Shown: positions 7,708 through 21,482, counted from the first letter of the stretch. The stretch is 64,000 nt of DNA from Patescibacteria group bacterium (GCA_018062825.1 JAGORL010000001.1:125432-189431), one strand, 5' to 3'. Numbers and translations are program-made. Notes: generated by a model from the letters alone, not told the origin.

Positions 7708-8829
7708 GTGCACCGCGCGATACTAGCTGATGTTGTTTCTTACAAGATGCCAAAAGAAGAGGCGCTTGTTCGCATGCGTGAACTTGATGAGCTCACGCGT
7801 ACGTACGGCGGCCTAACGGTTGTTGAATCCCTTCAGCGCCGAGCCCAGCCAGATCACCGGACGTTTATCGGTAAGGGAAAAGTTGACCTTCTTGTACAGC
7901 AAGCGCCAAAACTTGGCGCCACACTTTTGGTAGTCAATGAGATATTAAAGCCGCAACAAATCTTTAACCTAGAAGAGGCTTTTCGGCCCGTGAAGGTGCA
8001 GGTATGGGATCGTATTGATCTCATCTTGCATATCTTTGATCGTCATGCCACAAGCGCTGAAGCAAAGCTGCAGATCGAACTCGCTCGTTTGCGTCACATG
8101 GGTCCGCGTATTTACAACCTTGGAAGTCAGCTCGGTCGCCAACGCGGCGGCACGGGTACACGTGGTGGCTCGGGTGAGGGAAATACGGAGGCCATGAAGC
8201 GGCACATGAAAGAACAGGAGCGCCGTATTTTGCAGAAACTGCGTTCATACGAAAGCTTGCGTGGTGAGCAGCGCAAGAACCGCAAGCGTAATGATTTGCA
8301 AACCGTTGCGCTCGTTGGCTATACAAATGCCGGTAAAACCTCGCTTTTGAATGCGCTTACCAACAAGAAAGAGCTGGCGGAAGATAAGTTATTCGCAACT
8401 CTTGATACGCGTATTGGCGAGTTGTACCTGAAGTCACAAGCTCGCTCGGTACTGCTATCAGACACGATCGGTTTTATTCGCGACTTGCCACCTCAGCTCA
8501 TCGAAGCCTTTCGATCCACCCTCTCTGAGGCGGTGAATGCGGATCTGCTGCTGCACGTTATCGATGCTGCTGATCCGGAGCTTGAGGCCAAGATCGGTGT
8601 CGTTGAGGACGTACTTGGTCAATTACAAGTTTTAGAGCATCCGCGTTTGCGGATTTTGACCAAGGCCGATCTACTCACGCCTGCGCAAAAAAAGACGTTT
8701 AGTAAAGAGATTTTAGTCTCTTCAGTGACAGGTTCTGGATTTGATCGACTCGATAGTGCGATAAGTGATGCGTTGTCCCCAGTCCGAAACGGGGAAGTGC
8801 GCCAAGATTGGAGTAAAATAGAGGCGTAG
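7708..8829 (+). CDS. hflX: GTPase HflX
   Basis: HflX N-domain, glycine-rich GTGGGSGEGNTE loop, G1 VALVGYTNAGKTSLLNALT, G3 DTIGF; GTG start directly after yqeY stop. Confidence 0.85.
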   Translation: MHRAILADVVSYKMPKEEALVRMRELDELTRTYGGLTVVESLQRRAQPDHRTFIGKGKVDLLVQQAPKLGATLLVVNEILKPQQIFNLEEAFRPVKVQVWDRIDLILHIFDRHATSAEAKLQIELARLRHMGPRIYNLGSQLGRQRGGTGTRGGSGEGNTEAMKRHMKEQERRILQKLRSYESLRGEQRKNRKRNDLQTVALVGYTNAGKTSLLNALTNKKELAEDKLFATLDTRIGELYLKSQARSVLLSDTIGFIRDLPPQLIEAFRSTLSEAVNADLLLHVIDAADPELEAKIGVVEDVLGQLQVLEHPRLRILTKADLLTPAQKKTFSKEILVSSVTGSGFDRLDSAISDALSPVRNGEVRQDWSKIEA

Positions 8830-8856
8830 CACAACTCGTGCACGCCTCTTTTTTTG
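8821..8856 (+). terminator. hairpin + T7 overlapping hflX stop
   Basis: GAGGCGT-agcacaactcgtgc-ACGCCTC followed by TTTTTTT; sits only ~10 nt before the next gene start. Confidence 0.5.
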
Positions 8857-10640
8857 TACATCTTGTGAAAGCTCTCCATATTGGCGCCATCTTCATCTTT
8901 CTCGCACTCATAGCTGTTGCAGTTCCTGATCTTGTAGTGCATGCGCAATCGCAAGAAGCGCTCGAGGTCGCGCAGACTGCTGGTTTAGGAACCGGTCGTA
9001 GCCTGCCGCAAATTATCGGCACCATCATCAATGTCTTTCTAGGATTCCTAGGAGTCATCTTCCTTATTCTTGTTATTTACTCCGGTTTCCTCTGGATGAC
9101 CGCTGGCGGTGATGACGAGAAGGTGAATCGAGCCAAGCAAACCCTTATTCGTGGAGCAATCGGGCTTGCTATTGTATTAAGCGCCTTTGCTATCACGTCG
9201 TTTATCATGAATGCACTTCTTGGAGCTACGGGAATAAACTCCGGCAGTGGCCCTGGGGGTACGGTGGCTATTGAGCGTTTTTCTGGAGCGCTTGGCTCTG
9301 GTCCACTACGTGATCATTATCCACTACGCAACCAAACAGATGTTGCTCGCAATACGAATATCGTTGTTACGTTCAAAGATGCCATCAATCCAGCGGATGT
9401 AATTCTTGGCTACGACACAAATGGTACGCCAACTGATGCTTCGGATGACGTCGTTGCAACCGCAATCAACGCCGAGAATGTGCGCATATATCGCACTATT
9501 GATGGAGAAGAAGGGGCGATCGCAAATGTGTCAGTAGCTCTTACCGAGGACTTCAAGACCTTTGTCTTTAACCCGGCTGAGTATCTTGGTTCAGCTACGG
9601 AGGACGTTTCGTATTCGGTTTTCTTGTCGCCGGATATTCAAAATCTTGCTGGACAAGACGTGTTTGTTGGTGGAAATAATAGTGGATACCTATGGTCATT
9701 TGAAACAGGCACATTTATTGACGTTACAGCGCCAACGATTAAATCCGTAGTGCCTATGTCAGGCGCTACGTATGATCGAAACATCGCCATTCAAGTAACC
9801 TTTTCAGAAGCGGTAGATCCAACAGCAGCTTCAGGTATTCGTGAAGCGGCGAGTGGTTTCTCAAACATTCTTACCTCTGGAGGGTCGGGAATTTTATCTG
9901 GAACATACACACTTTCAAACGGATACAAGACAGTAACCTTCCTGACGGATGACGTTTGCGGCACTAATTCATGCGGTGAAACAATCTATTGCTTACCAGG
10001 TTCTCAGGCAATTAGCGTGGACGTTAAGGCGGCAACTCCGGGAGCAACGCCTCCACAAGTAGATACGTTCCCATACAACGGTATCGCGGACATGGCTGCC
10101 AACTCCCTGGATGGCAATGATGACGGCGTAGCAGGCGATGGTTACGTTTGGGGCTTTTCAACCACAAATGACATCAACCTCACCGGTCCAGCTATTGAAA
10201 GCATCAATCCAAATATTCTGGCTGAAGACGTGCCACTTGATCAGCCGATCACAGCGGTTTTCAATGATGTTTTGCTCGCAAATTCAATCTCATCAGATGA
10301 CATCTTCTTAACAAATATCGAGGTGAGCGGCGGCATGAGTCACGAGCAGTGGTATCGCTTTGACGTTGATTTCTTAGCAGCCGATGGCTCAGAATTATCA
10401 CCCGGCGTTGTTCCACAAAAAAGTGAGGTAACAATTGCGCACGGCACGTTCCTTGAATCGGTAAATGGCTTATCGTACCGCTACGGTGTTGAATTTACTG
10501 AAGGAGTGCGAAACGCATATCAGAATTGTTATGTACCGGCAAACGGGCCAACTGCAACGGGCGCTGCTTGTGGCGTAACTTCAGCTGCTCCGTACTGTTG
10601 TAATGGTTCGGCTTCAGCAGTTGCTTGTGATCTTTTCTAA
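8838..10640 (+). CDS. secreted surface protein with T4SS-pilin-like N-terminal two-helix domain and Ig-like repeats (probable start GTG 8865)
   Basis: signal peptide ...VVHA/Q; motif FLWMTAGGDDEKVNRAKQTLIRGAIGLAIVL; Ig-like repeats; Cys-rich C-terminus (CGVTSAAPYCCNGSASAVAC). Confidence 0.6.
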   Translation: MHASFFVHLVKALHIGAIFIFLALIAVAVPDLVVHAQSQEALEVAQTAGLGTGRSLPQIIGTIINVFLGFLGVIFLILVIYSGFLWMTAGGDDEKVNRAKQTLIRGAIGLAIVLSAFAITSFIMNALLGATGINSGSGPGGTVAIERFSGALGSGPLRDHYPLRNQTDVARNTNIVVTFKDAINPADVILGYDTNGTPTDASDDVVATAINAENVRIYRTIDGEEGAIANVSVALTEDFKTFVFNPAEYLGSATEDVSYSVFLSPDIQNLAGQDVFVGGNNSGYLWSFETGTFIDVTAPTIKSVVPMSGATYDRNIAIQVTFSEAVDPTAASGIREAASGFSNILTSGGSGILSGTYTLSNGYKTVTFLTDDVCGTNSCGETIYCLPGSQAISVDVKAATPGATPPQVDTFPYNGIADMAANSLDGNDDGVAGDGYVWGFSTTNDINLTGPAIESINPNILAEDVPLDQPITAVFNDVLLANSISSDDIFLTNIEVSGGMSHEQWYRFDVDFLAADGSELSPGVVPQKSEVTIAHGTFLESVNGLSYRYGVEFTEGVRNAYQNCYVPANGPTATGAACGVTSAAPYCCNGSASAVACDLF

Positions 10641-13600
10641 TCATCGTCTTGTGAAACGACTTCTCTCCTCACTTCTCATCGCTCTTTCCCTCGGCTTTGC
10701 GGGTAGTCTCGCCTGGCCGTCATTCGTGCCTGAAGTGCACGCTCAAGCCACAGCCGCTCTTGATGGGCTAGAGGAAACAAATGAGTCAATCGGGCTTGGT
10801 GATCAGCCACTCGAGATTATTATCGGAAACATCATCCGCGTTGCTCTCGGTTTCCTTGGTATTATTGCGGTTTGTATTATTCTCTACGGAGGATTCGTTT
10901 GGATGACTTCCGGTGGTAGTGAAGAGAAGGTGAGTAGAGCAAAGAAGATCTTAATTAATGGTGTTATTGGTTTAGGTTTAGTCATGACCTCGCTTGCAAT
11001 TGCAACGTTTGTCATGAATGCTATCTCCGGCGCTACCGGCAGTTCCGCAAATGGTGGTTCTACAGGTGGTGGAAACGGTGGCATTGGCCTTGGCGGTGGA
11101 TCATCAAGCACCTTTGAGGTCACGGCAATTTCCCCACAGGGTGAACTTGCTATTCGCAATGTCGTGGCACAGATCACTTTTTCAAAAAGCGTAGATGAGG
11201 AATCAGTTGCCGGTCGTATTGCGGTTACAAACGTGGTTACCGGCGAAGAGGTTCCAGGAACGCTCTCGGTTAGAAATAGTCGTGTGAGTTTTGTGCCAAG
11301 CACACCTTGCCCTGAGCCAAACGGTGATCGTTTCTGTTTTGATGCAAATACCCAGTATCGAGTTTCTGTCGAAAGCGGCGTAGAAAGCACAGGTGGCATT
11401 ACGCTAACCTGTACGGTTGCGAGCTGTTCAGGAGACTTTGTAACCGGTGAATTGGTAGATGTCGCGTCACCTGATGCGCTCGTCACCCTTCCTGATAACA
11501 ATGCTTCAGTATCAGTTGATGCGTTTATTGATACACAGGTACAGGCAACAGATGATGCTGGTTTGTCAGTTGTAGAGTTCCAGGTGGCAGATGTGCCATT
11601 TGATGCCATGCCAACGTCGGGTACCTCAGCGCTCGTTTCAAGCGTATGGGATACAACAAGCCTGGAGCTTGGTGCACGCTATCGTTTAACTGGCGTTGTT
11701 TTCGATCAAGCTGGAAACAGCGACGACGATACCGCGACAGTTACCGTGCGAGGCGAATGGTGTTTTAATGGCGTTCTTGATACCGATCAAGGTGAAACCG
11801 GTATCGATTGTGGTGGAGATTCGGGTAGTGCAAATTACTGTGGCTCTTGTGCCGGTTCATCATGTGAGGTGAATGCTGATTGTGGTTCCGGAGCAAGTTG
11901 TGTTACCGGTGTTTGTACGATCGTGCCAGAAATCACGAGCATTTCGCCAGATAACGCTGCGCCTGGATCGTTCGTTACTATTTCTGGAGATGGCTTTGGT
12001 CAGGCCGCTGGTTCAGTAACCTTTGGCTTTGGCTTAGCGGGTGAACTTACCGCGCCACTTGCTGCTTGTTCTGAAAACTGGTCACCTCGTCAAATTATCG
12101 TTGAGGTGCCGCAAGGTGGAGTAGATGGAGCAATTTTAGTTGCGGCGGCTTCTGGGCTCACTGACGCTACAAATGATGAGAATGGCATCAGTTTGAATGA
12201 TTTTGATGTTAACGATGTAAATCGTCCAGGCATCTGTGCTGTTACTCCAGATGCCGGTGTTGCAACCTCGGCGGTAGTGCTAACTGGCGCAGGCTTTGGC
12301 GCATCCCAAGGGGAAAGTGAAGTCTATTTTAATGAATCTATTGAGGCGGGAAGTTATGTTTCCTGGGCAGAGAGTGGCGCAAATATCACAGTGCCACCGC
12401 TTGCCGCGGGCGAATATCCAGTAACAGTTGTCGTAGATGGCGTGACATCAAATGCCGTAGCCTTTGATGTAGTAACCGAGGTTGATATTAATCCAGTGAT
12501 CACATCGGTAACGCCTGGTTCAGGTGGTATCGGTCAATACATCACCTTGCAAGGTGCCGATTTCGGCACAAGTATCGGCACGGTTTTTCTTGATAGCGTC
12601 GAGTCCGGTCGTCGAGCCATTGCTTCAATTGATTTTCCAGACGCCTGTGCTGATGATATTTGGTCCGAAACAGAAGTGACGGTCATTATTCCTGATGGCT
12701 ACAGCGATGGTGGCTTCGATTCGCTGGTGCCAGGAGCATATGAACTCACGCTCCAGTCTTCGCGTGGGGATCTTTCAAATACTGTCGCCTTCAATGTTAC
12801 GAGCGCGCAGCCAACGCCTGGCATCTGTGCTATCGATCCTTCACAGGGCGCTGCCGGAGACGTTGTAACGATCATTGGTGATAATTTTGGATCAACTGCT
12901 GGTACTGTAACGTTCTCCGCTGGCTTATCGGCTGTAAGTGGTGATTGGGAAGACGGTGAAATTTCAGTAACGGTTCCAGCGGGTACACAAACCGGTTCCG
13001 TGACCGTAGCTACAGAGGCGGGTGAGAGTAATGGCGTTACCTTTACGGTTGGCGCAAGCGCCACCGGCGCAGCTGCCCCAGTAACGGCAAGCTACGCCTG
13101 GATGTTCTCAACCGGTGAAATTCCGCAAACCCCGCAAGTAATCGTGACCTGTAGTGATACGCAGGTAAGCGGTGTACCAAACGCAACCTTTACGCAGGAG
13201 GTGTGTATTAATGCTGTTGTTTACGTCGAGTTTACTGCAGACATGAATCCAGCGACGCTTGATGACGCCCTAACCGTTGCTCGCTGTACAGCTGGCGGTG
13301 ATAACCCATGTGACACCACTGAAGTTATTAGCGGTTCGTACTCTGTTAATGATCACGCTGTACGATTCACCCCGGTCGACCTCTTGGCGCAAAGTTCAAC
13401 CTACGAAGTCCGAGTCAGTACTGCGGCGCAATCAGTAGACGCAGTTGCCCTTGATGAAGATGTATCTTGGGAATTCACCACCCGTTCTGATGCTACGCTT
13501 TGTAACATCGAGCGCGTTGTTGTAAGTCCGGTAACAAAAACCTTAACAGTAATTAATGACACCGCTCCATATCAGGCGTTACCAGTTACCGGTTGTGTAG

Positions 13601-16600
13601 TGACCGATCCGGAAAGCTATACCTGGTCCTGGGCAACGGATGAAAGCTACGCGCGTTTTAATAGTGCAGTAGATACATCATGTGTTGGCGGTACCTCATC
13701 ATGTGCCACAGTTGAAGCGCTTGCAGAAGGCGAGGCGCTGGTAACAGCTACCGAGGTATCTGAGTCCGTTGCTGGTATAAACGGTAGTGGTGAGTTGATC
13801 GTTAATTTTACCGATCCATACGTCACGCAAGCCTGGCCAAATTGTACGGAAGCTTGTACGAATGCAGAAATTGGAGCTCGTTTTAATACACCGATGAATC
13901 AGGTGTCCATTGAGGCTGCAGGCGCGGTGCGCCTTTATGCTTGTGCAAATGAACTGTGTACATCACTCACGCCAATTATTGGTGCAACAGCTAACTGTCT
14001 ATCTGATGACGCAGGAAACTGTATCGGTTTCGCCCTGGCTCCATTATCACTTTCACCAAGTGATTTCTACCGTGTCGTCATCTCTGAGAGCGTTGAGAGC
14101 ATGAGTGGCGTGCCGCTCATTCGTCCAAATTATGGAACAGACTACTCATGGACCTTCCGCGTACGAGAAGACGCAACGGTGTGTGCTATAGACCGCATCA
14201 CGGTTGAGCCTGCTGATGTTGTTGTAAATACCATTGGTGACACCCGTAATTACACTGGTACCGCCTACGGCGCTGCTGACAGTTGCTCAGTCTCTGGTCA
14301 ACGCTTGGCAGGATATGCCTACAATTGGGGCTGGACTGATCCAATTGAAGATGAAAATAACGATAATAACGCCGCAACTCGTGTAGCAAATTGGTATAAC
14401 AACGCTTCGGTTGATAGTGCTCCGGGAGATGTTGTACTTGGCTGTACCTCATCATGTGTGAGCGCTGGTAGTGCTCCGTATAGCGCAATTTGTGGTGATG
14501 GCTACCTTGATGTTGCAAATGGTGAGGAATGTGAGGATGGCAACGTTGCTTCGGGTGATGGTTGCTCATCGAGCTGTCTGCGTGAAGGTCGTGATACGTT
14601 CGGTGTTTGTGGTAACGAAGTTGTTGACCGAACTCCAGCTGGCGCTGGTGAGGATTGTGATGACGGTGCGCGTGTAAGTGGTGATGGTTGTTCGGCGGAT
14701 TGTTTGAGTGAAGGATCATCAGCCATCGGTGCTACGTGCGGCAATAACGACATCGCACGAAATGTAACAACCCTAGCAGGAGAGGAATGTGATGACGGTA
14801 ACGGTACAAACAACGATGGCTGTTCAGCGCAGTGTCTTAATGAGGGTTCGCCGACCTTAGCTTCGGTTGGTGGTGCAGTTTGTGGTGATGGCTCTGTTGA
14901 TAGCCCTGCGGAGAGCTGTGATGATGGAAATACCGTGAACGGCGATGGTTGCTCAGATTCCTGTCTTTTTGAAGGATCATCGTTAGCGTATAGCGTGGGT
15001 TCGGTATGTGGTGATGGTGTGATTGGTATTGGAGAAGAGTGCGAGGACGGCAATAGTAAGTCCGGTGACGGTTGTTCAAAGAAATGTACGCTCGAGGGAT
15101 CATCCTCTTCCTATGCTGCGCCTTCATTCTGCGGCGATGGCATTATCGGCGTTGGTGAAGTGAACGCTTGCGAGGTCGGCATGAATGGTGATGGTCGCAC
15201 GGATCCAGAGCAGATCGCTATCATTCCAGATGAAGCAGTATTTGAGGTAGATCCAGCAACAGATAAGGCGATTGCAACAATTGAAGTCTCTGAGGATTCA
15301 TCTGGATTGTCTGCAACAACTTCGTTAACGCTCACTTGTTCAGCTACATCAGACAACGACTGTCCAGATCCGTCTGTTTATGGCGTTGGCACGGGTAATT
15401 GCTGTATGGCGCGCCCAGAGGTAACGCTTTTCCCATCCGGTTCGAACATGTGCCGCAATACCGCCATCTACCTCGTTTCAAGCGAGGAGCTTGATTTGAA
15501 CACCTTCATGCAGTCAACAACCGGCGGAGCGGTTACCGTTACGACGCCACGCATGTACGCCAAGCTCGATCTTGTCGCAACAGGAGGTGTTTGTCCTACC
15601 TCACACACCACGCTCGCTCAGAACCACACCAAGAATATCTTTGTTCGCGCTTGGTGGTTTGTGCGCGACATCTTCTTTAAGAATGCTCAGGCAGATAGCG
15701 GTGACTGTGTGGTGCCAATTGTTGGTTACGAACAAACGCCAATGGGAGACGGTACCTTTAAGATCGCCATGAAATACGGCGCACTGCTTGAGCCAAATGT
15801 CGGTTACACAATTGTTGTTGAGGGGGATAATGTCGTTAGCGACGCGGTTGTTGATGGCGTACGTTCACGCTACGGAGTCGGTATCAATGGCACGCAGGAG
15901 ATCGTATTTAAAACAGGTCCAGACGCCTGCGCTCTTGATGCTGTTCAGGTTATTGATACCGAGGATGAAACGCCATATACCTTTACCTTCCTTGATGAAG
16001 AACATGAATACTCGGCAGCGGCGTATGCACTTCGTGGAGGAGTGACCGCTGAAATTCAATCGATTCCTGGCGTATACGCTTGGTCATGGAGTTCATGGCT
16101 TTCCGATGCTGAAGACCTCTTTAGCGCCACTCAAGGTTCTGGTGATGGTGACACGGCAACAATCATGACCGAGGGTCAAAATGGTGAGGCAACGATCGTG
16201 GCAATCGCAGAAGTAACTGATGACGAACTTGGTATTGGTGCAGGTGAGGTGAGCGGTACCGCACCAGCATACGCACTTTTGTGTGAAAACCCTTGGCCAA
16301 ATCCATCGGTCGCCTATCCGTTCACAGATACATCCGCTGGTATTCCAGTTGGCGCGGTTAACGCTGGGGGCTGGATGCGCTTTGCGCTTTCATATTGTCG
16401 TGATGCCGGTAACGCAGGCACAGCTGATGACCTTGGCGCACTCACGGCGGTAGTTGCACAAAATCCAGAAAGTGAGGGCGTGCTGAAGGAGTACCTCTTC
16501 CCAGTTGACGATGGCTCGGGCGATGCTATCGGTATTCGTGTAGTTAGTAACGTGAACTACCATGGCGCTCTTGCGTGGTATGAGGCTCAAGGTTTCGCCG

Positions 16601-19600
16601 GTAGCCCAAGCGAGATCGTCGTTGACGGCTTCCGTGCTGTTCGTGACGGTCGAACCGTCTATGTTATCGCACCAAATCTTCCAGGAGCGATCACCCCGTC
16701 AGCGCCAACAACCGGTTATGTGAATACATACGTATTGTCATACAACCAAGGCGCTAGCGATAGCACGGAAATGATCTTTGATCAGATTCTTGAAAACTTC
16801 ATGTTCGGTATCAATATCAGTGACGTTGGACTCTGTGTTGATAGCGGGGGAGACTTCGTGGTTGAGGATGACGGCACGGGTATGTCATGTTCAAGCGATC
16901 TTGAGTGTGGCGGCGTTGGCGGAGTCTGTGCTTCAGATAAGGCAAAGATTCGTCGTGATACGCAGCGTTTGACGGATATGAGTGACATTGCTGCACTTGT
17001 TAATGATTACGGCATTGAAAACGGTGCCTGTTCCGGTAGTCAGGCGCTGTGTTCTGCGGATAGTCAGTGTCCAGCAACAGAGACCTGCGATCCAATCGTT
17101 CCAACGTTGCCGTCGGGAACTTATATTGCCGGTCTTGCTACAAGTAGCTGGCCATCATGGGATTCCTTGCTCGGCGGCGCCCTTGGTGCAAATGCTCTTC
17201 CTGCCGATCCTTTGAACATGTATCAGTCATGTGGCGTTGGCACTGGCATGGCTGCCACATTTGATGCGCAAACCTGTGTTGATGAAGTACAGGGTAAGTA
17301 TGTGTGTCCGGTCGGTTCAAGCGTGTACCACTATCGCGCTGTCGGAAATCGCGACGCTGTACTTTACGCTGATCTTGAAGACGATTCCGTTGAATGGGCA
17401 GCTGATATTGATACAAGCGCTGCGGATACCGTAACAATTCAGATCGGAAACAGCTCATCAACCGCTGAAGGCTTTGGATCAACGCTTGTTTGTAACGATG
17501 CAGCAGTGGGTGACGCTTGGGGCTTCTCAGCTGTTTGTGGCGACGGCATCCTTGGCGCAACTGAGGTGTGTGAAGTTGGTGATGTCGGCGGATCTTCTAC
17601 GGCCTGCGATGCTGATGGTAACGGCACAATTGATGGCGTGCAGTCGCAGATCTGTAACAGCACGTGTAGCGGCTTTGTGAATAATCCAGCCGCCGCCTGT
17701 ATCGCACCAAGTTGCGGCGACGGCATTGTTGATGGCGGTGAAGAGTGTGATGACGGTTCATCAAATGGTCAGTACGGATTCTGTGGTTCTGACTGTTCTT
17801 ATGACACAGCATTCTATTGTGGCGATGGCTTACTTGCTGGTGGTGAGGTCTGTGACTGTGGCGCAGCGCCGCTCATGTCACCACTTGCTGATTCTCGAGC
17901 ATTCTCATCTGGTGCGGGTACGTGCTCGGGCTTAAACGGTGTTTATAACGCAAGCGCTACCGCAAGCTGCGCGTGGAATTGTGCTGGTCCTGCCGGTTTC
18001 TGTGGTGATAACACCGTACAAAGCGGTGAGCAGTGTGATGGTGAGGCGCAAACCTGGGCAGGTGAGTTGTGTACGTCAAATGCTGGCGATCGCAAGGGAT
18101 TGCCATGTACTGAAGACGCCTATTGTAAAGCCGGCGTTGGCGCTGCAGCCTCTGCGGTATGTGGTGGAACCGCTCCCGCACGTCAGGCGTGTCAGGTTGG
18201 TTACACACGTGTTCGTGAATGTGATAACGGTCCGGGTGGTAGCTGTACCTATGATGCCGGTTGGGTAGCTACAGCGTGTACAGAGATCGGATCTTGTGGT
18301 GATGGCGTTGTTGATCCAGATGAAATGTGTGATGACGGTAATACCGATAGTACTGATGGTTGTACCGCAACCTGTCAGGCAAATGTGTGTGGCGACGGCT
18401 TTGTTTACTCAGGAGAGGAAGAGTGTGATGAGGGCGCAGGAAACGGCGCAGCCTGTGATTCTGCCTACGGATCAACATGTACTTCCTGTACTACATCTTG
18501 TAGGTACACCGTTTCTTCTGGTGAGTTCTGTGGTGACGGTGTCAGAAACGGTAATGAATTCTGTGATGCGAGCGCTATTCCATACCGTTGGTTTGATACT
18601 ACGGTCAGCGGTTTGGGCTTTGTTACCGATATGACCCTAGGTGACACCTGTTACACCCTCGGCAGCACGAAAGTTGAAGGTGGAAAGACCTACACCTGCC
18701 GAAGCGTTGGTATCTGTAACGGCGGATCAAGCAATGGTCAGTACTGCACTGCATCTTCTATTCTGGGAACATTCGGTACCGATGTCGCTGACTGTGGCAG
18801 CGAGATCTTCTTGATAGATGGTGAGTCAAAAATAGGTAATGGTGAGTGTGTAAAACCAACCTGTTCCGGCACGTGTGGCAGCGCTTGCCCGTTCTCGTAC
18901 GCTAGCGCTTCATTACTCATGACGCCAAATCAACCAGGTGCGCCAGCTAGCTCCACCGTCTCGCTCTACTCGTTTAGCGACGACTCAACAGCGACCCTGC
19001 CAAACGCCGCTTCAATCACCATTCCTTCCTGTAACGCCGCCACCGGCCTCACGGCTACACTTGATACCTCGGGTATTGATCTGCCTGATACGTACGTTGT
19101 CTTCATTACTGACAGATCGGGATCGATGGCTACATCAGCTTTGTCTGGTGAGGGTATGAATGTTGCGAAGGATGTCGTCCAAGATGGTATCGAAACCTTA
19201 TTTGATGAGCTCGGCGAAGAGATGTTCATCTCACTTGTTGATTACAGCTCAACTGCCTCATCATTCCCAACTTCTGGTTTCTATGGACCTAATGATGAGA
19301 GTCTCTTACTTGCAGAAGTGGAGACATATGTGGCGAGTGGGTCAACGGAAACAGATGATGCGATCAATGCAGCGAAGACACGGCTAGATTCTGTCTTTGA
19401 TAATGGCAATATTCGTCGAGTAGCAATCTTGCTTTCAGACGGTGTGCCAAATTCTACTTCAGCAACAGATACGGCAGCTGAAGCCTTCAAAGATGCCGGC
19501 TACGAGCTCTACACGATCGCTCTCACAAACACCAGCAGTTTGATTGATAACATGAATGGCTGGTCATCAAATAATGAAAATTGGGACTCAGATGATGGTG

Positions 19601-19917
19601 ATGAGCCAAACGTCTACAATCCAGTTACGGGCATTGACTATGCCTATGATGGCGATACTTCGGGAGAGCTAGAAGATATCTACGATCAAATTATTGCTTC
19701 TATCGTTGGTATGGCGATTACGGTGGTAAGTGTGGACGGCGACGATACCGCACTTGATAGCGCTACAGTTACCGCTGGTTCAAATATCGCTTTGCCATGG
19801 CCTTCAAACTTTGAGTGCGATGGCATTGGGGAACAGACTGTGCCAATTCAGATCACCTTCGGTGGCCTTGGTCGGGTAGTGCTCAAGGATGTAAACGTCA
19901 ATTATTGCGCTCCGTAA
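10603..19917 (+). CDS. giant (about 3100 aa) secreted multidomain surface protein: T4SS-pilin-like N-term, IPT/TIG-like repeats, Cys-rich CGDG..EECDDGN..GDGCS repeats, C-terminal vWA/MIDAS domain (probable start GTG 10651)
   Basis: single uninterrupted ORF; N-terminus paralogous to the preceding gene (GTG-AAA start, signal peptide ending VHA/Q, FVWMTSGGSEEKVSRAKKIL); x4 I.SISP..G..G..VTI.G..FG; DRSGSM...ETDD...LLSDG vWA motifs near 19090-19720. Confidence 0.7.
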   Translation: MVRLQQLLVIFSNHRLVKRLLSSLLIALSLGFAGSLAWPSFVPEVHAQATAALDGLEETNESIGLGDQPLEIIIGNIIRVALGFLGIIAVCIILYGGFVWMTSGGSEEKVSRAKKILINGVIGLGLVMTSLAIATFVMNAISGATGSSANGGSTGGGNGGIGLGGGSSSTFEVTAISPQGELAIRNVVAQITFSKSVDEESVAGRIAVTNVVTGEEVPGTLSVRNSRVSFVPSTPCPEPNGDRFCFDANTQYRVSVESGVESTGGITLTCTVASCSGDFVTGELVDVASPDALVTLPDNNASVSVDAFIDTQVQATDDAGLSVVEFQVADVPFDAMPTSGTSALVSSVWDTTSLELGARYRLTGVVFDQAGNSDDDTATVTVRGEWCFNGVLDTDQGETGIDCGGDSGSANYCGSCAGSSCEVNADCGSGASCVTGVCTIVPEITSISPDNAAPGSFVTISGDGFGQAAGSVTFGFGLAGELTAPLAACSENWSPRQIIVEVPQGGVDGAILVAAASGLTDATNDENGISLNDFDVNDVNRPGICAVTPDAGVATSAVVLTGAGFGASQGESEVYFNESIEAGSYVSWAESGANITVPPLAAGEYPVTVVVDGVTSNAVAFDVVTEVDINPVITSVTPGSGGIGQYITLQGADFGTSIGTVFLDSVESGRRAIASIDFPDACADDIWSETEVTVIIPDGYSDGGFDSLVPGAYELTLQSSRGDLSNTVAFNVTSAQPTPGICAIDPSQGAAGDVVTIIGDNFGSTAGTVTFSAGLSAVSGDWEDGEISVTVPAGTQTGSVTVATEAGESNGVTFTVGASATGAAAPVTASYAWMFSTGEIPQTPQVIVTCSDTQVSGVPNATFTQEVCINAVVYVEFTADMNPATLDDALTVARCTAGGDNPCDTTEVISGSYSVNDHAVRFTPVDLLAQSSTYEVRVSTAAQSVDAVALDEDVSWEFTTRSDATLCNIERVVVSPVTKTLTVINDTAPYQALPVTGCVVTDPESYTWSWATDESYARFNSAVDTSCVGGTSSCATVEALAEGEALVTATEVSESVAGINGSGELIVNFTDPYVTQAWPNCTEACTNAEIGARFNTPMNQVSIEAAGAVRLYACANELCTSLTPIIGATANCLSDDAGNCIGFALAPLSLSPSDFYRVVISESVESMSGVPLIRPNYGTDYSWTFRVREDATVCAIDRITVEPADVVVNTIGDTRNYTGTAYGAADSCSVSGQRLAGYAYNWGWTDPIEDENNDNNAATRVANWYNNASVDSAPGDVVLGCTSSCVSAGSAPYSAICGDGYLDVANGEECEDGNVASGDGCSSSCLREGRDTFGVCGNEVVDRTPAGAGEDCDDGARVSGDGCSADCLSEGSSAIGATCGNNDIARNVTTLAGEECDDGNGTNNDGCSAQCLNEGSPTLASVGGAVCGDGSVDSPAESCDDGNTVNGDGCSDSCLFEGSSLAYSVGSVCGDGVIGIGEECEDGNSKSGDGCSKKCTLEGSSSSYAAPSFCGDGIIGVGEVNACEVGMNGDGRTDPEQIAIIPDEAVFEVDPATDKAIATIEVSEDSSGLSATTSLTLTCSATSDNDCPDPSVYGVGTGNCCMARPEVTLFPSGSNMCRNTAIYLVSSEELDLNTFMQSTTGGAVTVTTPRMYAKLDLVATGGVCPTSHTTLAQNHTKNIFVRAWWFVRDIFFKNAQADSGDCVVPIVGYEQTPMGDGTFKIAMKYGALLEPNVGYTIVVEGDNVVSDAVVDGVRSRYGVGINGTQEIVFKTGPDACALDAVQVIDTEDETPYTFTFLDEEHEYSAAAYALRGGVTAEIQSIPGVYAWSWSSWLSDAEDLFSATQGSGDGDTATIMTEGQNGEATIVAIAEVTDDELGIGAGEVSGTAPAYALLCENPWPNPSVAYPFTDTSAGIPVGAVNAGGWMRFALSYCRDAGNAGTADDLGALTAVVAQNPESEGVLKEYLFPVDDGSGDAIGIRVVSNVNYHGALAWYEAQGFAGSPSEIVVDGFRAVRDGRTVYVIAPNLPGAITPSAPTTGYVNTYVLSYNQGASDSTEMIFDQILENFMFGINISDVGLCVDSGGDFVVEDDGTGMSCSSDLECGGVGGVCASDKAKIRRDTQRLTDMSDIAALVNDYGIENGACSGSQALCSADSQCPATETCDPIVPTLPSGTYIAGLATSSWPSWDSLLGGALGANALPADPLNMYQSCGVGTGMAATFDAQTCVDEVQGKYVCPVGSSVYHYRAVGNRDAVLYADLEDDSVEWAADIDTSAADTVTIQIGNSSSTAEGFGSTLVCNDAAVGDAWGFSAVCGDGILGATEVCEVGDVGGSSTACDADGNGTIDGVQSQICNSTCSGFVNNPAAACIAPSCGDGIVDGGEECDDGSSNGQYGFCGSDCSYDTAFYCGDGLLAGGEVCDCGAAPLMSPLADSRAFSSGAGTCSGLNGVYNASATASCAWNCAGPAGFCGDNTVQSGEQCDGEAQTWAGELCTSNAGDRKGLPCTEDAYCKAGVGAAASAVCGGTAPARQACQVGYTRVRECDNGPGGSCTYDAGWVATACTEIGSCGDGVVDPDEMCDDGNTDSTDGCTATCQANVCGDGFVYSGEEECDEGAGNGAACDSAYGSTCTSCTTSCRYTVSSGEFCGDGVRNGNEFCDASAIPYRWFDTTVSGLGFVTDMTLGDTCYTLGSTKVEGGKTYTCRSVGICNGGSSNGQYCTASSILGTFGTDVADCGSEIFLIDGESKIGNGECVKPTCSGTCGSACPFSYASASLLMTPNQPGAPASSTVSLYSFSDDSTATLPNAASITIPSCNAATGLTATLDTSGIDLPDTYVVFITDRSGSMATSALSGEGMNVAKDVVQDGIETLFDELGEEMFISLVDYSSTASSFPTSGFYGPNDESLLLAEVETYVASGSTETDDAINAAKTRLDSVFDNGNIRRVAILLSDGVPNSTSATDTAAEAFKDAGYELYTIALTNTSSLIDNMNGWSSNNENWDSDDGDEPNVYNPVTGIDYAYDGDTSGELEDIYDQIIASIVGMAITVVSVDGDDTALDSATVTAGSNIALPWPSNFECDGIGEQTVPIQITFGGLGRVVLKDVNVNYCAP
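14491..15200 (+). repeat. tandem ~35-aa cysteine-rich repeats inside giant ORF (CGDG.{5,8}EECDDGN.{3,5}GDGCS..C..EG, about 7 copies); a second, looser block at ~17520-18560
   Basis: periodic repeat visible in the translation and as recurring tgtggtgatggc...gatgacggtaa...ggtgatggttgctc DNA. Confidence 0.8.
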
Positions 19918-19921
19918 TCTT

Positions 19922-20746
19922 ATGGTGGACTTCAACGATCAAGAATTCTTCGACCTCGAGCCGGCGTCACAAGCGTCGGCTCCATCCTGGCGCAAGCCAA
20001 AGATGCTCGCTGCTATTGGTGGAGCGATCGTTGGAGTCGTGCTGCTTGGAGGAATTGGTGTCTACGCCTGGAGCTTGCTTAGTTCAGGTGGCAATCAATT
20101 GCCACAAGGCACTGAGCGTACCGCTGAAGAGTTAGCGGCGCAGATGATGGAAAGCTGCGCAGACGATGACGCATCGTGTGTGAATCAGGCAAACGCTAAC
20201 GCCGCTAGAGAAGTGGGAGATATTACCGCCTGCGCAGAGGTTACCGGCGTTGCCTATGATGAATGTCTGTCAGTTATCGCTTTTGACCAAGGTGACGCTA
20301 CGTTATGTGAGCGAGTAAGTAATGATCGCCGCACGGCTTGTGCGGATAACGCTTGGATCAAGGCGGCGAGTTCTCAGAAAAAGTACGCCCTGTGTGCAAA
20401 TATCACCGATAATGATCGCCGTACCGCCTGTGAAGAAAATGTTGGCGTACAGGCAGCTTCGGCTAACAATTGCGCTGGGTTCGGTGCTCCAGAATCATAT
20501 TGTTCACAAAAGTTAGCGGTTGAGGCGGTGCTTATTGCGGGGGATCCCGCTGGCTGTCTCTCGCTCTCAGTTGAGGGGCGCATTGAATGCCAGGAGCTCT
20601 TCCCGGTACGAGACGATGATAGCGATGGGCTCACAAAAGAACAGGAGTTTGAGCTCGGAACATCCGATCAAATGGCAGATACGGATGGAGACGGGTACAA
20701 TGATGGGGAGGAAGTAGCAGGCGGGTATAATCCGCTTGCCCCATAA
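19922..20746 (+). CDS. single-pass membrane protein with Cys-repeat ectodomain and C-terminal DxDxDG calcium-binding (TSP3-like) repeats
   Basis: N-terminal cytoplasmic segment, TM helix (LAAIGGAIVGVVLLGGIGVYAW), repeated C..DNDRRTAC modules, C-terminal DDDSDGLTKEQEFELGTSDQMADTDGDGYNDGEEVAGGYNPL. Confidence 0.5.
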   Translation: MVDFNDQEFFDLEPASQASAPSWRKPKMLAAIGGAIVGVVLLGGIGVYAWSLLSSGGNQLPQGTERTAEELAAQMMESCADDDASCVNQANANAAREVGDITACAEVTGVAYDECLSVIAFDQGDATLCERVSNDRRTACADNAWIKAASSQKKYALCANITDNDRRTACEENVGVQAASANNCAGFGAPESYCSQKLAVEAVLIAGDPAGCLSLSVEGRIECQELFPVRDDDSDGLTKEQEFELGTSDQMADTDGDGYNDGEEVAGGYNPLAP

Positions 20747-20756
20747 GCGAATATCT

Positions 20757-21482
20757 ATGTTTGACGACAAGCAACCCGAAGACATCTTTGAAGGATCAGA
20801 CAAAGCTCCAGCGCCAATGAATCTTCCCGTTGAAGATCAACGCATTGCGCCAGCGCCTCGCCTGACGCCACCTACCACTCCATCAGCTAGTGCGAGCGCG
20901 ATGGGCTCTGCCCCAATGCAAGAAGAAGGGCACCCCATTGTCTCCGCAAAGGTTGTCTTGGTTGCTATCATCATTCTTGGTGTTATTGGCGCTACGATTG
21001 CGATCTCGTATAGCTTCATGTCGCAGCCTCAAGTATCGATGCCGCTCGCTGATCAGTCAGTAGAGGAGGATGAGAATGAAAATGACACTGATACTGAGGT
21101 AGTGCTAGATGATGAAGAAGGCAAAGGAGATGATGAGAACGAGCTAGATGGGCTTCCACAGACCGATCCAGCGGTTATTGTTATTGATAGTGACGGCGAT
21201 GGTCTCTCAAATGATGAAGAGATGGAGCTTGGAACGTCAATCAATAATCCTGATTCAGATAATGACGGCCTAGGAGATCGTGAGGAGATCCAGGTTTACA
21301 AAACAAATCCACTCAACCCAGATACTGACGGAGATACCTATTCAGACGGCGTTGAGGTGCAAGGCGGCTACAATCCAAACGGTGAAGGCAAATTGTTGCA
21401 AGTGCCAACGCCTCAAGAAGACTCATCTACAAGTATGGAATCCGATGTCATGGTGACTTCGGATGAAGAAGAAACGCTCTAG
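20757..21482 (+). CDS. paralogous single-pass membrane protein with acidic tail and DxDxDG repeats
   Basis: starts MFDDKQPED; TM helix VVLVAIIILGVIGATIAISY; DSDGDGLSNDEEMELGTSINNPDSDNDGLGDREEIQVYKTNPLNPDTDGDTYSDGVEVQGGYNPNG. Confidence 0.5.
   Translation: MFDDKQPEDIFEGSDKAPAPMNLPVEDQRIAPAPRLTPPTTPSASASAMGSAPMQEEGHPIVSAKVVLVAIIILGVIGATIAISYSFMSQPQVSMPLADQSVEEDENENDTDTEVVLDDEEGKGDDENELDGLPQTDPAVIVIDSDGDGLSNDEEMELGTSINNPDSDNDGLGDREEIQVYKTNPLNPDTDGDTYSDGVEVQGGYNPNGEGKLLQVPTPQEDSSTSMESDVMVTSDEEETL

What the first reader, a model, noticed from the sequence alone, without database searches (positions are those of the whole stretch)
8838..19917. Tandem paralogous surface proteins with T4SS-pilin-like N-terminal module, including a 3104-aa multidomain giant with a C-terminal vWA domain
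Two consecutive genes start with the same unusual architecture. Each has a GTG-AAA start, no recognisable Shine-Dalgarno and a signal peptide ending VHA|Q. A two-helix module follows, with the motif (F/V)WMT(A/S)GG..EKV.RAK(Q/K).L. I recall this module as the T4SS-pilin-like domain reported mainly from CPR/Patescibacteria and not seen on canonical adhesins (established knowledge, recalled from memory). The second ORF runs uninterrupted for 9.3 kb. Along it I see in order: a Gly-rich linker, four IPT/TIG-like repeats (I.SISP..G..G..VTI.G..FG), Ig-like segments, a block of about seven tandem 35-aa Cys repeats (CGDG...EECDDGN...GDGCS..C..EG) resembling the myxobacterial-type cysteine-rich repeat, a second looser Cys-repeat block, and a C-terminal vWA domain with an intact MIDAS (DRSGSM ... 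T ... D). In eukaryotes this combination resembles integrin-ligand/ECM proteins. In a reduced genome, a protein this size (about 15% of this window) with a metal-dependent adhesion domain at its distal end is a strong candidate for host/partner-cell attachment. A hairpin+T7 terminator lies about 10 nt upstream of the first gene and neither gene has an SD, so their expression mechanism is unclear.
Basis: partly seen in the sequence, partly recalled or inferred. Interest (0 to 1): 0.7.

Follow-up and report, generated by a model that had tools for sequence, protein, structure and literature searches.

The report
Pilin-anchored giant surface protein pair
Two neighbouring genes of an ultra-small (Uhrbacteria/CPR) bacterium encode a 591-aa and a 3,088-aa surface protein that each start with a complete conjugation-type (VirB2-like) pilin module; the pair is conserved gene-for-gene in hundreds of related species and is the best candidate so far for an adhesin attached to this group's enigmatic pilins.

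Summary
Gene A (8865-10640, 591 aa) and gene B (10651-19917, 3,088 aa) both begin GTG-AAA. Each has a signal peptide ending VHA|Q and a Pfam T4SS_pilin (PF18895) module scoring above threshold. B also carries Ig-like domains, 4 TIG domains, two DUF4215/TIGR02232 Cys-repeat blocks and a C-terminal VWA with an intact MIDAS.

New here: this is a deeply conserved cassette, not a one-off or an assembly artefact. At least 565 species genomes, mostly Ca. Uhrbacteria, encode A. In 72 of 72 loci with room downstream, a B-like giant follows directly. B aligns end to end with its orthologues at 40-50% identity, and 116 of 129 cysteines are conserved. The pilin hairpin is among the best-conserved parts, and its consensus matches the lineage's stand-alone pilins. 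The distal VWA is the least conserved part and is replaced in distant clades.

The missing Shine-Dalgarno is genome-wide, and the hairpin+T7 is a local, non-conserved hflX terminator.

Best reading: Sec-exported surface proteins held by a pilin hairpin, with conserved stalks and an exchangeable binding tip. They are analogous to modular type IV pilins but built on a VirB2-type pilin. Adhesion and incorporation into a pilus are inferred, not shown. No T4SS machinery lies nearby.

The parts
8820..8855 (+). Hairpin (8820-8849) plus T-run. It overlaps the hflX stop codon (TAG, 8827-8829) and looks like an intrinsic terminator of hflX, 9 nt upstream of gene A.
   Evidence: -27.6 kcal/mol, z = -5.7. 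It is not conserved upstream of A orthologues: only 16 of 71 loci have any weak hairpin+T, at varying distances. The consensus scanner missed it.
8865..10640 (+). Gene A: a 591-aa pilin-anchored Ig-like surface protein (GTG start).
   Evidence: An identical protein, P0121, is in NCBI as 'Ig-like domain-containing protein [Patescibacteria group bacterium]'. At least 400 homologues, those listed being 560-624 aa and 50-84% identical, nearly all PF13205+PF18895. AF2 model pLDDT 87, pTM 0.74.
8865..8945 (+). A signal/leader peptide (aa 1-27), ending VHA|Q.
   Evidence: AxA|Q column conserved; hydrophobic segment 1-29. Pairwise identity is only 0.30 across orthologues.
8994..9227 (+). A VirB2-type pilin module (aa 44-121). 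Two long hydrophobic helices are joined by the short basic loop TAGGDDEKVNRAKQ.
9282..10637 (+). A ectodomain (aa 140-591): a string of Ig-like beta-sandwich domains (Big_5 x3) plus a Cys-rich C-terminus ending ...CCNG....C.LF.
10651..19917 (+). Gene B: a 3,088-aa pilin-anchored giant (GTG start). The ORF list gives 3,104 aa from ATG 10603, which lies inside gene A.
   Evidence: It aligns end to end in a single HSP with orthologues at 40-50% identity. 116 of 129 Cys are at least 90% conserved.
10651..10743 (+). B signal/leader peptide (aa 1-31), ending VHA|Q.
   Evidence: Pairwise identity 0.20.
10807..11034 (+). B VirB2-type pilin module (aa 53-128).
   Evidence: PF18895, 33.2-37.9 bits. Of the 120 closest relatives listed, 118 are shorter than 200 aa and nearly all are stand-alone PF18895 pilins of Patescibacteria. 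Pairwise identity 0.55, the joint highest region of B. The consensus is the same as that of the stand-alone pilins.
11035..11106 (+). Gly/Ser-rich flexible linker (aa 129-152).
   Evidence: The equivalent linker in the A model has pLDDT below 50.
11107..11925 (+). Big_5/Big_7 Ig-like domains and a small Cys-knot segment (aa 153-425).
   Evidence: Cysteines conserved.
11926..13050 (+). Four IPT/TIG domains (aa 426-800; repeats start at 428, 528, 617 and 725).
   Evidence: PDB sequence hits fall on the TIG-like domain of cyclodextrin glycosyltransferases.
13051..14460 (+). Big_5 and other Ig-like domains (aa 801-1270).
14491..15210 (+). Cys-rich acidic repeat block 1 (aa 1281-1520): 5 full copies plus 1 degenerate copy.
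   Evidence: DUF4215 and TIGR02232. Copy count. No DNA tandem repeat. Pairwise identity 0.55.
15211..16497 (+). Central beta-rich region with no family match (aa 1521-1949).
   Evidence: no Pfam hit. Conserved across orthologues at 0.38.
16498..17430 (+). Conserved ~310-aa module of unknown function (aa 1950-2260). It is also found at the N-terminus of smaller secreted CPR proteins.
   Evidence: At least 1,305 clusters at 50% identity match at E<=1e-3. There is no Pfam or PDB match and the AF2 model is unreliable at pLDDT 49.
17536..18630 (+). Cys-rich repeat block 2 (aa 2296-2660): 7 loose CGDG...C repeats.
   Evidence: Cysteines invariant.
19096..19620 (+). VWA domain with MIDAS (aa 2816-2990; D2821-x-S-x-S, T, D of SDG).
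   Evidence: PF00092, 44-49 bits; PF13519. MIDAS is mostly kept in the VWA-bearing clade. This is the least conserved region at 0.32. It is absent or replaced in distant clades. It has no close PDB relative.
19621..19914 (+). C-terminal domain ending ...NYCAP (aa 2991-3088).
   Evidence: The C-terminal motif is conserved in the VWA-bearing clade. There is no LPXTG sorting signal and no RTX repeat.
19922..22436 (+). Three tightly packed genes for small single-pass membrane proteins with bacterial TSP3 (Ca-binding) repeats. They are probably part of the same cassette.
   Evidence: The first one follows B in other genomes: it is called as TSP3_bac in L001 and L003, and a TSP3 motif was found in 23 of 35 loci, most of the others being cut by the locus end before the C-terminal repeat.

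Best explanation
A and B are surface proteins held at the cell by a conjugation-type (VirB2-like) pilin module.

**Proposed steps.**
1. Each protein is exported by Sec.
2. Its long leader is removed after AxA by signal peptidase I, as happens for VirB2/TraA propilins.
3. The two hydrophobic helices insert as a hairpin, with the short basic loop on the cytoplasmic side. The C-terminal fusion therefore ends up outside.
4. A flexible Gly/Ser linker follows. A then displays a short stalk of Ig-like domains. B displays a ~3,000-residue, strongly acidic, disulfide-rich chain of about 25-30 domains.
5. The far end of B is an exchangeable binding module. In this genome it is a VWA domain with a metal-ion-dependent adhesion site. 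It attaches the cell to a partner cell or to a particle.

The fused module is indistinguishable in sequence from the lineage's stand-alone pilins. I therefore expect it to dock into the same pilin assembly, as a rare subunit or tip subunit or at its base, rather than to be a mere anchor.

**Shown:** the gene models, the domain content, the predicted hairpin fold of A's module (B's inferred from its sequence), the conservation, the synteny and the conservation gradient.

**Inferred:** leader cleavage, membrane topology, surface display, adhesion, and any relation to a pilus.
For: **Domains and fold.**
- Pfam and NCBIfam domain calls.
- A leader ending AxA|Q is conserved in the aligned orthologues.
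- The only hydrophobic segments in A are the leader and two N-terminal helices; B has the same three plus one weak segment near its C-terminus (3010-3028). Neither has a C-terminal sorting signal.
- AF2 of A (pLDDT 87) gives a helical hairpin at 47-78/84-121, a disordered linker and Ig-like domains. Fold matches are to Ig-like stalks and S-layer proteins, and for the hairpin a conjugative pilin.

**The pilin module is conserved beyond what an anchor would need.**
- Pairwise identity in the hairpin is 0.66 in A and 0.55 in B, against 0.20-0.30 for the leaders.
- The consensus of the fused modules matches the stand-alone pilins position for position, including the mature N-terminal GLGT.D segment.
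- The closest relatives of B's module are 115-150-aa pilins of Patescibacteria, including Uhrbacteria, and these lie in 4-5-gene arrays.

**The cassette is conserved.**
- At least 565 species genomes encode A.
- 72 of 72 loci with room downstream have B next to A.
- B is collinear end to end with its orthologues.
- 116 of 129 Cys are conserved.
- 80 of the 82 giants of at least 2,800 aa that share B's central module carry the N-terminal pilin module.

**The tip varies while the stalk is kept.**
- VWA is the least conserved region at 0.32.
- MIDAS is mostly kept where VWA exists.
- VWA is replaced by CarboxypepD_reg-like or fn3 modules in distant clades.

**Literature.**
- Patescibacteria carry VirB2-like pilins, often in arrays. 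No PrgB-type adhesin was detected in them (PMC12102498).
- The pilin array is essential in Southlakia (PMC10633639).
- T4SS pilins are among the highly expressed genes in Patescibacteria-methanogen cultures (PMC10936435).
- The same design, a pilin module with a grafted vWA adhesin, is experimentally established for the type IV pilin PilB (PMC8179133).
Against: - No VirB4, VirB6 or any other T4SS gene lies in the 64-kb window. The neighbours are housekeeping genes.
- The Uhrbacteria stand-alone pilin arrays I inspected have no Pfam-detectable VirB4 within 10 kb. A pilus is therefore not demonstrated for this lineage.
- Very high conservation, constant length and a housekeeping neighbourhood would equally suit a structural envelope component.
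- Fold hits include S-layer proteins.
- A 3,000-aa C-terminal load on every subunit is sterically incompatible with a helical VirB2 filament. At best these are sparse or tip subunits.
- Some ABY1-class CPR, the class to which Uhrbacteria belong in GTDB (recalled from memory), appear unattached to other cells (PMC9166423).
- No ligand, expression or localisation data exist.
- The VWA has no close solved relative.
Confidence: 0.55

Rival explanations
1. A and B form a constitutive envelope or coat component, not an adhesin. The pilin hairpin has been co-opted purely as a membrane anchor. A and B build a fixed surface layer, spacer or fibril coat that every cell of the lineage needs, like an S-layer or glycocalyx scaffold. 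The VWA and Cys repeats would mediate self-association or Ca/metal cross-linking, possibly with the downstream TSP3 proteins.
For: - The cassette is present in all 72 loci tested, has nearly constant length and sits in fixed synteny among housekeeping genes.
- The ectodomain of A is as conserved as core proteins, at 0.56-0.70.
- Fold matches include the S-layer proteins SbsC, EA1 and Sap.
- B is extremely acidic, with D+E 410 against K+R 100.
- Ca-binding TSP3 proteins are encoded directly downstream and are conserved there.
Against: - The hairpin keeps the full pilin sequence signature, which a generic anchor would not need.
- A 3,088-aa protein is an expensive building block for an abundant coat in a genome of about 1 Mb.
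- The distal module is exchanged between clades, which is typical of ligand-binding tips.
- No SLH or other lattice-forming domain was found.
Confidence: 0.22
2. A and B are true modular T4SS pilins. They are polymerised through their VirB2-like module into, or at the tip of, a pilus made of the stand-alone pilins and assembled by the Patescibacterial T4SS. This would give that pilus a built-in 600-aa adaptor and a 3,000-aa adhesin. This is the strong form of the best explanation and is scored on its own.
For: - The fused and stand-alone modules share the same consensus.
- Each is a single-copy gene, against 4-5 stand-alone pilin genes, as expected for minor versus major subunits.
- There is a flexible linker between module and ectodomain.
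- The hairpin matches a conjugation pilin structure.
- There is precedent in type IV pili, where PilB is probably located at the pilus tip (PMC8179133).
- From memory: the C-terminus of F-pilin lies on the outside of the F pilus and tolerates peptide fusions.
Against: - No T4SS ATPase or channel genes are near A-B or near the pilin arrays inspected.
- No pilus of this type has been visualised in Uhrbacteria.
- The structural match is no better than to designed helical hairpins.
- VirB2 filaments pack tightly together with lipid.
Confidence: 0.3
3. The 9.3-kb ORF is an assembly artefact, a chimera or a decaying gene.
For: MAG-derived sequence. A few orthologues in other MAGs are interrupted by a stop or a frameshift: L007 and L031.
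Against: - The reading frame is uninterrupted.
- Dozens of independent assemblies give the same collinear 3,050-3,500-aa protein.
- There is no DNA-level repeat that could collapse.
- GC content matches the surrounding sequence.
- Cysteines and domain order are conserved.
Confidence: 0.01

Closest known systems
VirB2/TrbC-type T4SS pilins of Patescibacteria (Pfam PF18895 T4SS_pilin; arrays described in PMC12102498 and PMC10633639)
   Same: - The N-terminal ~125 aa of A and B match the family above threshold.
- They have the cleavable leader, the two-helix hairpin with a basic loop and the WMTAGG signature.
- Their consensus is the same as that of stand-alone pilins of the same lineage.
   Different: - Known members are roughly 80-230 aa, mostly 115-150 aa and stand-alone. 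They often lie in variable arrays near virB4, with mean identity 25% within arrays (PMC12102498).
- A and B carry ectodomains of 450 and 2,950 aa.
- A and B are single-copy and strongly conserved. They sit among housekeeping genes with no T4SS gene nearby.
Modular type IV pilins, e.g. Streptococcus sanguinis PilB (pilin module + vWA/MIDAS adhesin; PMC8179133)
   Same: The design principle is the same: an N-terminal pilin module, a short linker and a grafted adhesive module. The module is even the same kind, a vWA with MIDAS. The expected role is a rare or tip subunit that gives a filament its binding specificity.
   Different: - The filament system is unrelated. Type IV pilins have a class III signal peptide and a single alpha1 helix and are processed by prepilin peptidase.
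- A and B have no such motif.
- A and B have a Sec-type leader and a two-helix VirB2-type hairpin.
- B is about six times larger than PilB-type modular pilins. The largest example cited in that paper is 860 aa.
Giant non-fimbrial adhesins (T1SS RTX adhesins such as SiiE, LapA and MpIBP; Gram-positive LPXTG giants such as Embp or the Mobiluncus adhesin)
   Same: Multi-kilodalton chains of Ig-like domains that project a distal ligand-binding region. They are acidic and depend on Ca or other metals.
   Different: - B has no RTX repeats, no T1SS signal and no C-terminal LPXTG signal.
- It is anchored at the N-terminus by a pilin hairpin.
- Its domains are not tandem copies of one repeat. It is a fixed, non-repetitive order conserved across species. 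Typical giant adhesins vary in repeat number.
Sortase-pilus tip adhesins with vWA domains (RrgA, GBS104; named in PMC8179133 for RrgA)
   Same: A vWA/MIDAS domain is presented at the far end of a surface fibre in a single-membrane (monoderm) cell.
   Different: There is no sortase signal and no pilin-motif or isopeptide architecture. Attachment is through a membrane hairpin at the opposite (N-terminal) end.

Membership tests
T4SS_pilin (PF18895; VirB2/TrbC-like) | Profile match above the curated threshold | tested here: met
   A scores 34.1 bits and B 33.2 bits (37.9 on the N-terminal segment), against a cut-off of 26.6. NCBIfam NF045849 (Mbov_0395 pilin-like) scored 36.1 and 26.6 bits, below its cut-off of 40.
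T4SS_pilin (PF18895; VirB2/TrbC-like) | Cleavable Sec-type leader followed by two hydrophobic helices joined by a short basic loop | tested here: met
   The leader ends VHA|Q and the AxA|Q column is conserved. Hydrophobic segments are 1-29, 46-82 and 92-122 in A. AF2 gives helices at 47-78 and 84-121. Cleavage itself was not tested.
T4SS_pilin (PF18895; VirB2/TrbC-like) | Small stand-alone subunit (about 70-150 aa) | tested here: not met
   A is 591 aa and B is 3,088 aa. Of the 120 closest relatives of the module listed, 118 are shorter than 200 aa, mostly 115-150 aa.
T4SS_pilin (PF18895; VirB2/TrbC-like) | Encoded with T4SS machinery (VirB4, VirB6, VirB3/8) | tested here: not met
   None was found among the larger ORFs of the 64-kb window that were scanned. 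None lies in the conserved flanks of the orthologues. The rest of the genome is not available.
T4SS_pilin (PF18895; VirB2/TrbC-like) | Polymerises into an extracellular pilus | not testable with these tools
VWA domain with MIDAS (PF00092) | Profile match above threshold | tested here: met
   44.2 bits on the whole protein and 49.4 bits on the segment, against a cut-off of 23.8. VWA_2 scored 28-32.6 bits.
VWA domain with MIDAS (PF00092) | MIDAS residues DxSxS ... T ... D | tested here: met
   D2821-R-S-G-S, the T of GSTET and the D of LSDG are present in the window protein. They are mostly conserved in orthologues that have the domain (DxSxS or DxSxT, GT.T, SDG/TDG). Metal binding was not tested.
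IPT/TIG (PF01833) | Profile match; tandem Ig-like domains | tested here: met
   77.1 bits in 4 stretches. Repeats start at 428, 528, 617 and 725.
Cysteine-rich acidic repeat (DUF4215 PF13948 / TIGR02232 myxo_disulf_rpt) | Profile match; spaced Cys pattern in tandem copies | tested here: met
   PF13948 scored 98.6 bits and TIGR02232 160.2 bits in 6 stretches. There are 5+1 copies in block 1 and 7 loose copies in block 2. The cysteines are invariant across orthologues.
Modular type IV pilins (PilB type) | Class III signal peptide / prepilin-peptidase motif and a single N-terminal alpha1 helix | tested here: not met
   The leaders are Sec-type and the module is a two-helix hairpin. No G|F-T-L-x-E motif was found on a real gene in the window or in the 85 loci. 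This is an analogy only.
LPXTG/sortase-anchored surface proteins | C-terminal LPXTG followed by a hydrophobic tail | tested here: not met
   The C-termini are ...ACDLF and ...NYCAP. The only LPxTG is internal, at B residue 977, and has no tail.
RTX/T1SS giant adhesins | GGxGxD nonapeptide repeats and a C-terminal T1SS signal | tested here: not met
   No GGxGxD motif and no HemolysinCabind hit.
S-layer proteins | SLH or another cell-wall-binding/lattice domain; very high abundance | tested here: inconclusive
   No SLH domain was found. The Ig-like domains of A do resemble those of SbsC, EA1 and Sap. Abundance is unknown.

The most novel reading that the evidence does not exclude
A and B would be the first modular VirB2-type pilins. 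They would be incorporated, through an intact conjugative-pilin module, at the tip or base of a pilus built from the lineage's stand-alone pilins. The Patescibacterial 'T4SS pilus' would then carry its own covalently attached adaptor (A) and a ~100-nm adhesin (B) with an exchangeable binding head. This would supply the adhesin that surveys of Patescibacterial T4SSs reported as missing. It would also explain what these essential but relaxase-less pilin systems are for, namely catching a partner.
Probability: 0.3. Interest if true: 0.8.

Novelty: new variant of a known kind. Interest (0 to 1): 0.6.

Why it matters
Patescibacteria (CPR) make up a large share of bacterial diversity. Most are thought to live attached to other cells, yet the molecules that make contact are almost unknown outside a few Saccharibacteria.

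Their VirB2-like pilins are an acknowledged puzzle. They are unique among single-membrane bacteria, essential in the one genetically tractable species, lack relaxases, and have no identified adhesin (PMC12102498, PMC12857230, PMC10633639).

This locus shows the same pilin module covalently joined to a 600-aa and a 3,100-aa adhesin-like ectodomain. The pair is conserved across an entire order, in at least 565 species genomes and at least 80 clusters of giants at 50% identity. That gives concrete targets:
- a defined protein pair to look for by cryo-ET or proteomics;
- a swappable distal module (VWA here) to test for ligand and host specificity;
- a natural experiment on whether VirB2-type pilins can carry cargo.

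It also shows that a bacterium with a genome of about 1 Mb keeps roughly 1% of it for one non-repetitive, disulfide-rich protein under purifying selection.

Tried and rejected
1. **Type IV pilin head in B.** I suspected that B residues ~2096-2250 (KAKI.RD..RL...Y..NG...P.L..GT...S.WPSW...DP.N...Y.Y...Y.L.A.LE) form a type IV pilin/GspG-like head domain. This was not supported.
   - A 34-sequence profile searched against all PDB sequences gave nothing relevant.
   - A Pfam scan of all 34 members gave only weak Cys-motif noise.
   - A single-sequence Pfam scan at E<=10 gave nothing.
Its Foldseek hits were all above E = 1e-3 and included no pilin.
2. **MSA for the B-module model.** I tried to use orthologue sequences taken from the fetched loci.
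3. **Homologue search with B's central 811 aa.** The word-index search returned only 5 hits and no giants. The exhaustive representative search was needed instead.
4. **Exact look-up of A (P0121).** Nothing was on record in the contig index.
5. **T4SS ATPase next to stand-alone pilin arrays.** The two unannotated proteins beside the L084 array (806 and 496 aa) have no meaningful Pfam match. The flanking 750-875-aa proteins in L084-L086 have no Walker A motif and carry several central hydrophobic (predicted TM) segments. They might be VirB6-like, but this was not tested.
6. **Upstream hairpin as a conserved regulatory element.** Rejected, because it is not conserved in orthologous loci.
7. **Missing SD as a peculiarity of these genes.** Rejected, because it is genome-wide.
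8. **Repeat collapse or assembly artefact.** Rejected.
9. **PDB sequence searches.** A found nothing. B found only TIG-type and Cys-repeat-type matches.
10. **Sigma-70 promoter scan.** No plus-strand candidate upstream of A or B. This is uninformative for CPR.

Full report
**What is there**

The window is a housekeeping stretch of a roughly 50% GC genome. The gene order is eno, gap, pgk, lepB, hisS, yqeY, hflX, then the two genes in question, then three small membrane proteins, then ybeY, dgk, ftsA, ftsZ, nrdR and pyk.

The ORF list gives 8838..10640 and 10603..19917 on the + strand.
- For A this is also NCBI's call. The 591-aa product is identical to P0121, 'Ig-like domain-containing protein [Patescibacteria group bacterium]', on a 406-kb contig.
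- For B, a start at 10651 leaves a 10-nt gap after A, as in the orthologous loci.

Both proteins begin with a hydrophobic leader ending VHA|Q. Two long hydrophobic helices follow, joined by a short basic loop that contains (F/V)WMT(A/S)GG..EKV.RAK.

**Domain content**

- T4SS_pilin PF18895 is present in both proteins: 34.1 and 33.2 bits, or 37.9 on B's N-terminal segment, against a cut-off of 26.6.
- A also has three Big_5 domains.
- B also has Big_5/Big_7, four TIG domains, DUF4215 (98.6 bits) and TIGR02232 (160 bits), and a C-terminal VWA (44-49 bits).
- The MIDAS triad is intact in the sequence.

Two corrections apply.
- The first Cys block has 5 full copies plus 1 degenerate copy at 40-48-aa spacing. 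The second block has 7 loose copies.
- A and B are paralogous only over the leader, the pilin module and the first Ig-like domain, at about 55% identity.

B residues ~1521-2290 match no Pfam family.

Neither protein has a C-terminal LPXTG signal or RTX repeats. Apart from the three N-terminal segments, the only hydrophobic stretch is one weak segment near B's C-terminus (3010-3028). B is very acidic, with 410 D+E against 100 K+R, and has 129 Cys.

**Not an artefact**

TRF finds no DNA tandem repeat anywhere in 8800-20000, and GC content matches the flanks.

The decisive point is that independent assemblies give the same protein. B aligns in a single collinear HSP over all 3,088 residues with orthologues at 40-50% identity. 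It aligns over about 85% of its length with the most distant orthologues at 28-32%. A few 'short' versions in other MAGs are interrupted by a stop or a frameshift (L007, L031). Two are genuinely shorter variants of about 1,880 aa (L072, L083).

**A conserved cassette**

This is the main addition to the finding.
- A has at least 400 homologues in the protein collection. Those listed are 560-624 aa, 50-84% identical, and nearly all PF13205+PF18895.
- A scan of one genome per species found at least 565 genomes with a relative. The named ones are mostly Candidatus Uhrbacteria.
- In all 72 loci that extend at least 1.5 kb beyond A, a B-like gene follows directly. Where complete, it is typically 3,050-3,500 aa, with the pilin motif near residue 80-125 in nearly all.
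- The neighbourhood lepB-hisS-(S21)-yqeY-hflX-A-B-TSP3 protein is kept in genomes where A is only 52-58% identical. The ~275-aa TSP3 protein after B recurs across loci.
- An exhaustive search with B's central module found 1,305 clusters at 50% identity. Of the best 150, 82 are at least 2,800 aa (up to 4,177), and 80 of those carry an N-terminal pilin-HMM match.

**Conservation pattern**

Across 34 B orthologues, identity is an even ~44% along the whole chain, and 116 of 129 cysteines are at least 90% conserved. Pairwise identities by region are as follows.
- Leaders: 0.20-0.30.
- Pilin hairpin: 0.66 in A and 0.55 in B, the joint highest region of B.
- Cys repeats: 0.55.
- VWA: 0.32, the lowest.

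MIDAS is mostly retained where a VWA is present. In distant clades the distal end is a different module, CarboxypepD_reg-like or fn3.

The consensus of the fused pilin modules (A, B and other giants) is essentially the same as that of the stand-alone 115-150-aa pilins. This includes the mature N-terminal GLGT.D segment and LYGGF.WMTAGG..EKV..AKKI. The closest relatives of B's module are such stand-alone pilins, including ones from Uhrbacteria. Those pilins lie in arrays of 4-5 genes.

**Structure**

AF2 of A with 120 homologues is confident, with pLDDT 87 and pTM 0.74. It shows a leader helix, a helical hairpin at 47-78/84-121, a disordered Gly/Ser linker, and then Ig-like beta-sandwich domains with pLDDT above 90.
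- The model of B's central module was unreliable at pLDDT 49 and yielded nothing.

**The expression puzzle**

The hairpin+T7 is real (8820-8855; -27.6 kcal/mol, z = -5.7). It overlaps the hflX stop codon. It is not conserved upstream of A in other genomes, so it is best read as a local hflX terminator.

At most 2 of the 35 window genes checked have even a 4-nt SD-like match, pgk, hisS, ftsZ and pyk having none. The absence of an SD is therefore a property of the genome, not of these genes.

**How it most likely works**

Shown: the gene models, the domains, the predicted hairpin fold of A's module (B's inferred from sequence), the cassette conservation and the stalk-versus-tip conservation gradient.

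Inferred:
- Sec export and leader cleavage after AxA. Cleavage of VirB2/TraA propilins by signal peptidase I is established knowledge, recalled here.
- An N-out/loop-in/C-out hairpin, following the positive-inside rule applied to the loop DEKVNRAK.
- Display of the C-terminal chain outside the cell.
- Metal-dependent binding by the distal VWA.

The pilin module is conserved well beyond what a hydrophobic anchor needs and is indistinguishable from the stand-alone pilins. I therefore think it docks into the same pilin assembly as a rare or tip subunit. This is the logic experimentally established for the modular type IV pilin PilB, a pilin module plus a vWA adhesin (PMC8179133).

It would also fill a reported gap. 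Patescibacteria carry VirB2-like pilins, unique among monoderms and essential in Southlakia, but 'no adhesins, such as PrgB, were detected' (PMC12102498; PMC12857230; PMC10633639).

**What speaks against it**

- No T4SS gene is near A-B.
- The Uhrbacteria pilin arrays I inspected have no detectable VirB4 within 10 kb. The large neighbours there have several central hydrophobic segments (predicted TM) and no Walker A motif.
- Constant length, a housekeeping neighbourhood and S-layer-like fold matches fit a structural coat just as well.
- Some ABY1-class CPR appear unattached to other cells or sit on lake snow (PMC9166423). Uhrbacteria belong to ABY1 in GTDB (recalled from memory). The target could therefore be particles or polymers rather than a host cell.

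My estimates are:
- about 0.55 for a pilin-anchored adhesin;
- about 0.3 for genuine pilus incorporation, which is a subset of the first;
- about 0.2 for a non-adhesive envelope component;
- about 0.01 for an artefact.

**Novelty**

The proteins are in public databases under generic names ('Ig-like domain-containing protein', 'pilin', 'Type IV secretion system pilin/Bacterial Ig-like domain'). I found no paper that describes VirB2-type pilin modules fused to large ectodomains, or this conserved cassette (PMC12102498 treats all PF18895 hits as pilins).

The components and the design principle are known. The combination is new: a VirB2-type module, a fixed non-repetitive 3,000-aa stalk and order-wide conservation. 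I rate it a new variant of a known kind, with interest 0.6.

Noticed in passing
window 33800-36500 and 42200-44700: Two islands of 63-66% GC in a genome of about 50% GC. They have long overlapping ORFs on both strands, Arg- or Pro-rich translations and no Pfam match. They could be foreign DNA, unusual low-complexity genes or a chimeric assembly.
   Followed up: no
window 28743-30791 (-): A 682-aa secreted protein with C-type lectin and Big_5 domains. Its signal peptide also ends VHA| (VHA|D). It has no pilin module, so it is a second, differently anchored candidate surface-binding protein.
   Followed up: partly
window 19922-22436 (+): Three tightly packed genes for single-pass membrane proteins with bacterial TSP3 Ca-binding repeats lie directly after B. 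The first one is conserved after B in other genomes, so the cassette is probably A-B-TSP3.
   Followed up: partly
window 16498-17430 (B residues 1950-2260): A ~310-aa module (IGIRV.PN..HYS..WY..QGF.GSP...VDGY.AI.DGRTVYV ... KAKI.RD..RL ... S.WPSW ... DP.N ... Y.Y ... LE) occurs in at least 1,305 clusters at 50% identity. It sits internally in pilin-anchored giants and at the N-terminus of 300-1,300-aa secreted CPR proteins that lack a pilin module. Its function is unknown and it matches nothing in Pfam or the PDB.
   Followed up: yes
whole window (35 gene starts): Shine-Dalgarno motifs are essentially absent upstream of all genes, and TTG/GTG starts are frequent. This lineage evidently initiates translation without SD pairing.
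   Followed up: partly
window 37850-38261 (-): A tmRNA gene with the tag peptide ANVFSRAKAALASAFATPSFAFVAA. tRNA-Asp lies at 32164-32240 (-).
   Followed up: no
L084 9114-11395; L085 8861-11241; L086 8908-11274: Uhrbacteria stand-alone pilin arrays (4-5 genes) sit in a conserved context: NTP_transferase, a solute-binding protein (SBP_bac_1), the pilins, and a 750-875-aa protein with several central hydrophobic segments (predicted TM) and no Walker A motif. That protein could be an extended VirB6-like component. The first gene of each array is an intermediate-length (169-251 aa) pilin-like protein with a Cys-containing N-terminal extension; two of the three (L084, L085) match PF18895.
   Followed up: partly
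loci L004-L083 (record titles): Many public MAG records that carry this Patescibacterial cassette are titled 'uncultured Gammaproteobacteria bacterium', and one is titled 'Candidatus Kapaibacterium'. These are evidently placeholder or mis-binned taxonomic labels.
   Followed up: no
window 44778-47205 (-): The SOS-type genes lexA and dinB are adjacent in this reduced genome.
   Followed up: no
L072 11638-17289; L083 11864-17503: These are shorter (~1,880 aa) pilin-anchored variants. They keep the pilin module, TIG-type repeats and central parts but carry fn3 domains in their C-terminal part (residues ~1550-1720) and no VWA. L037 and L042 lack about two TIG repeats.
   Followed up: partly
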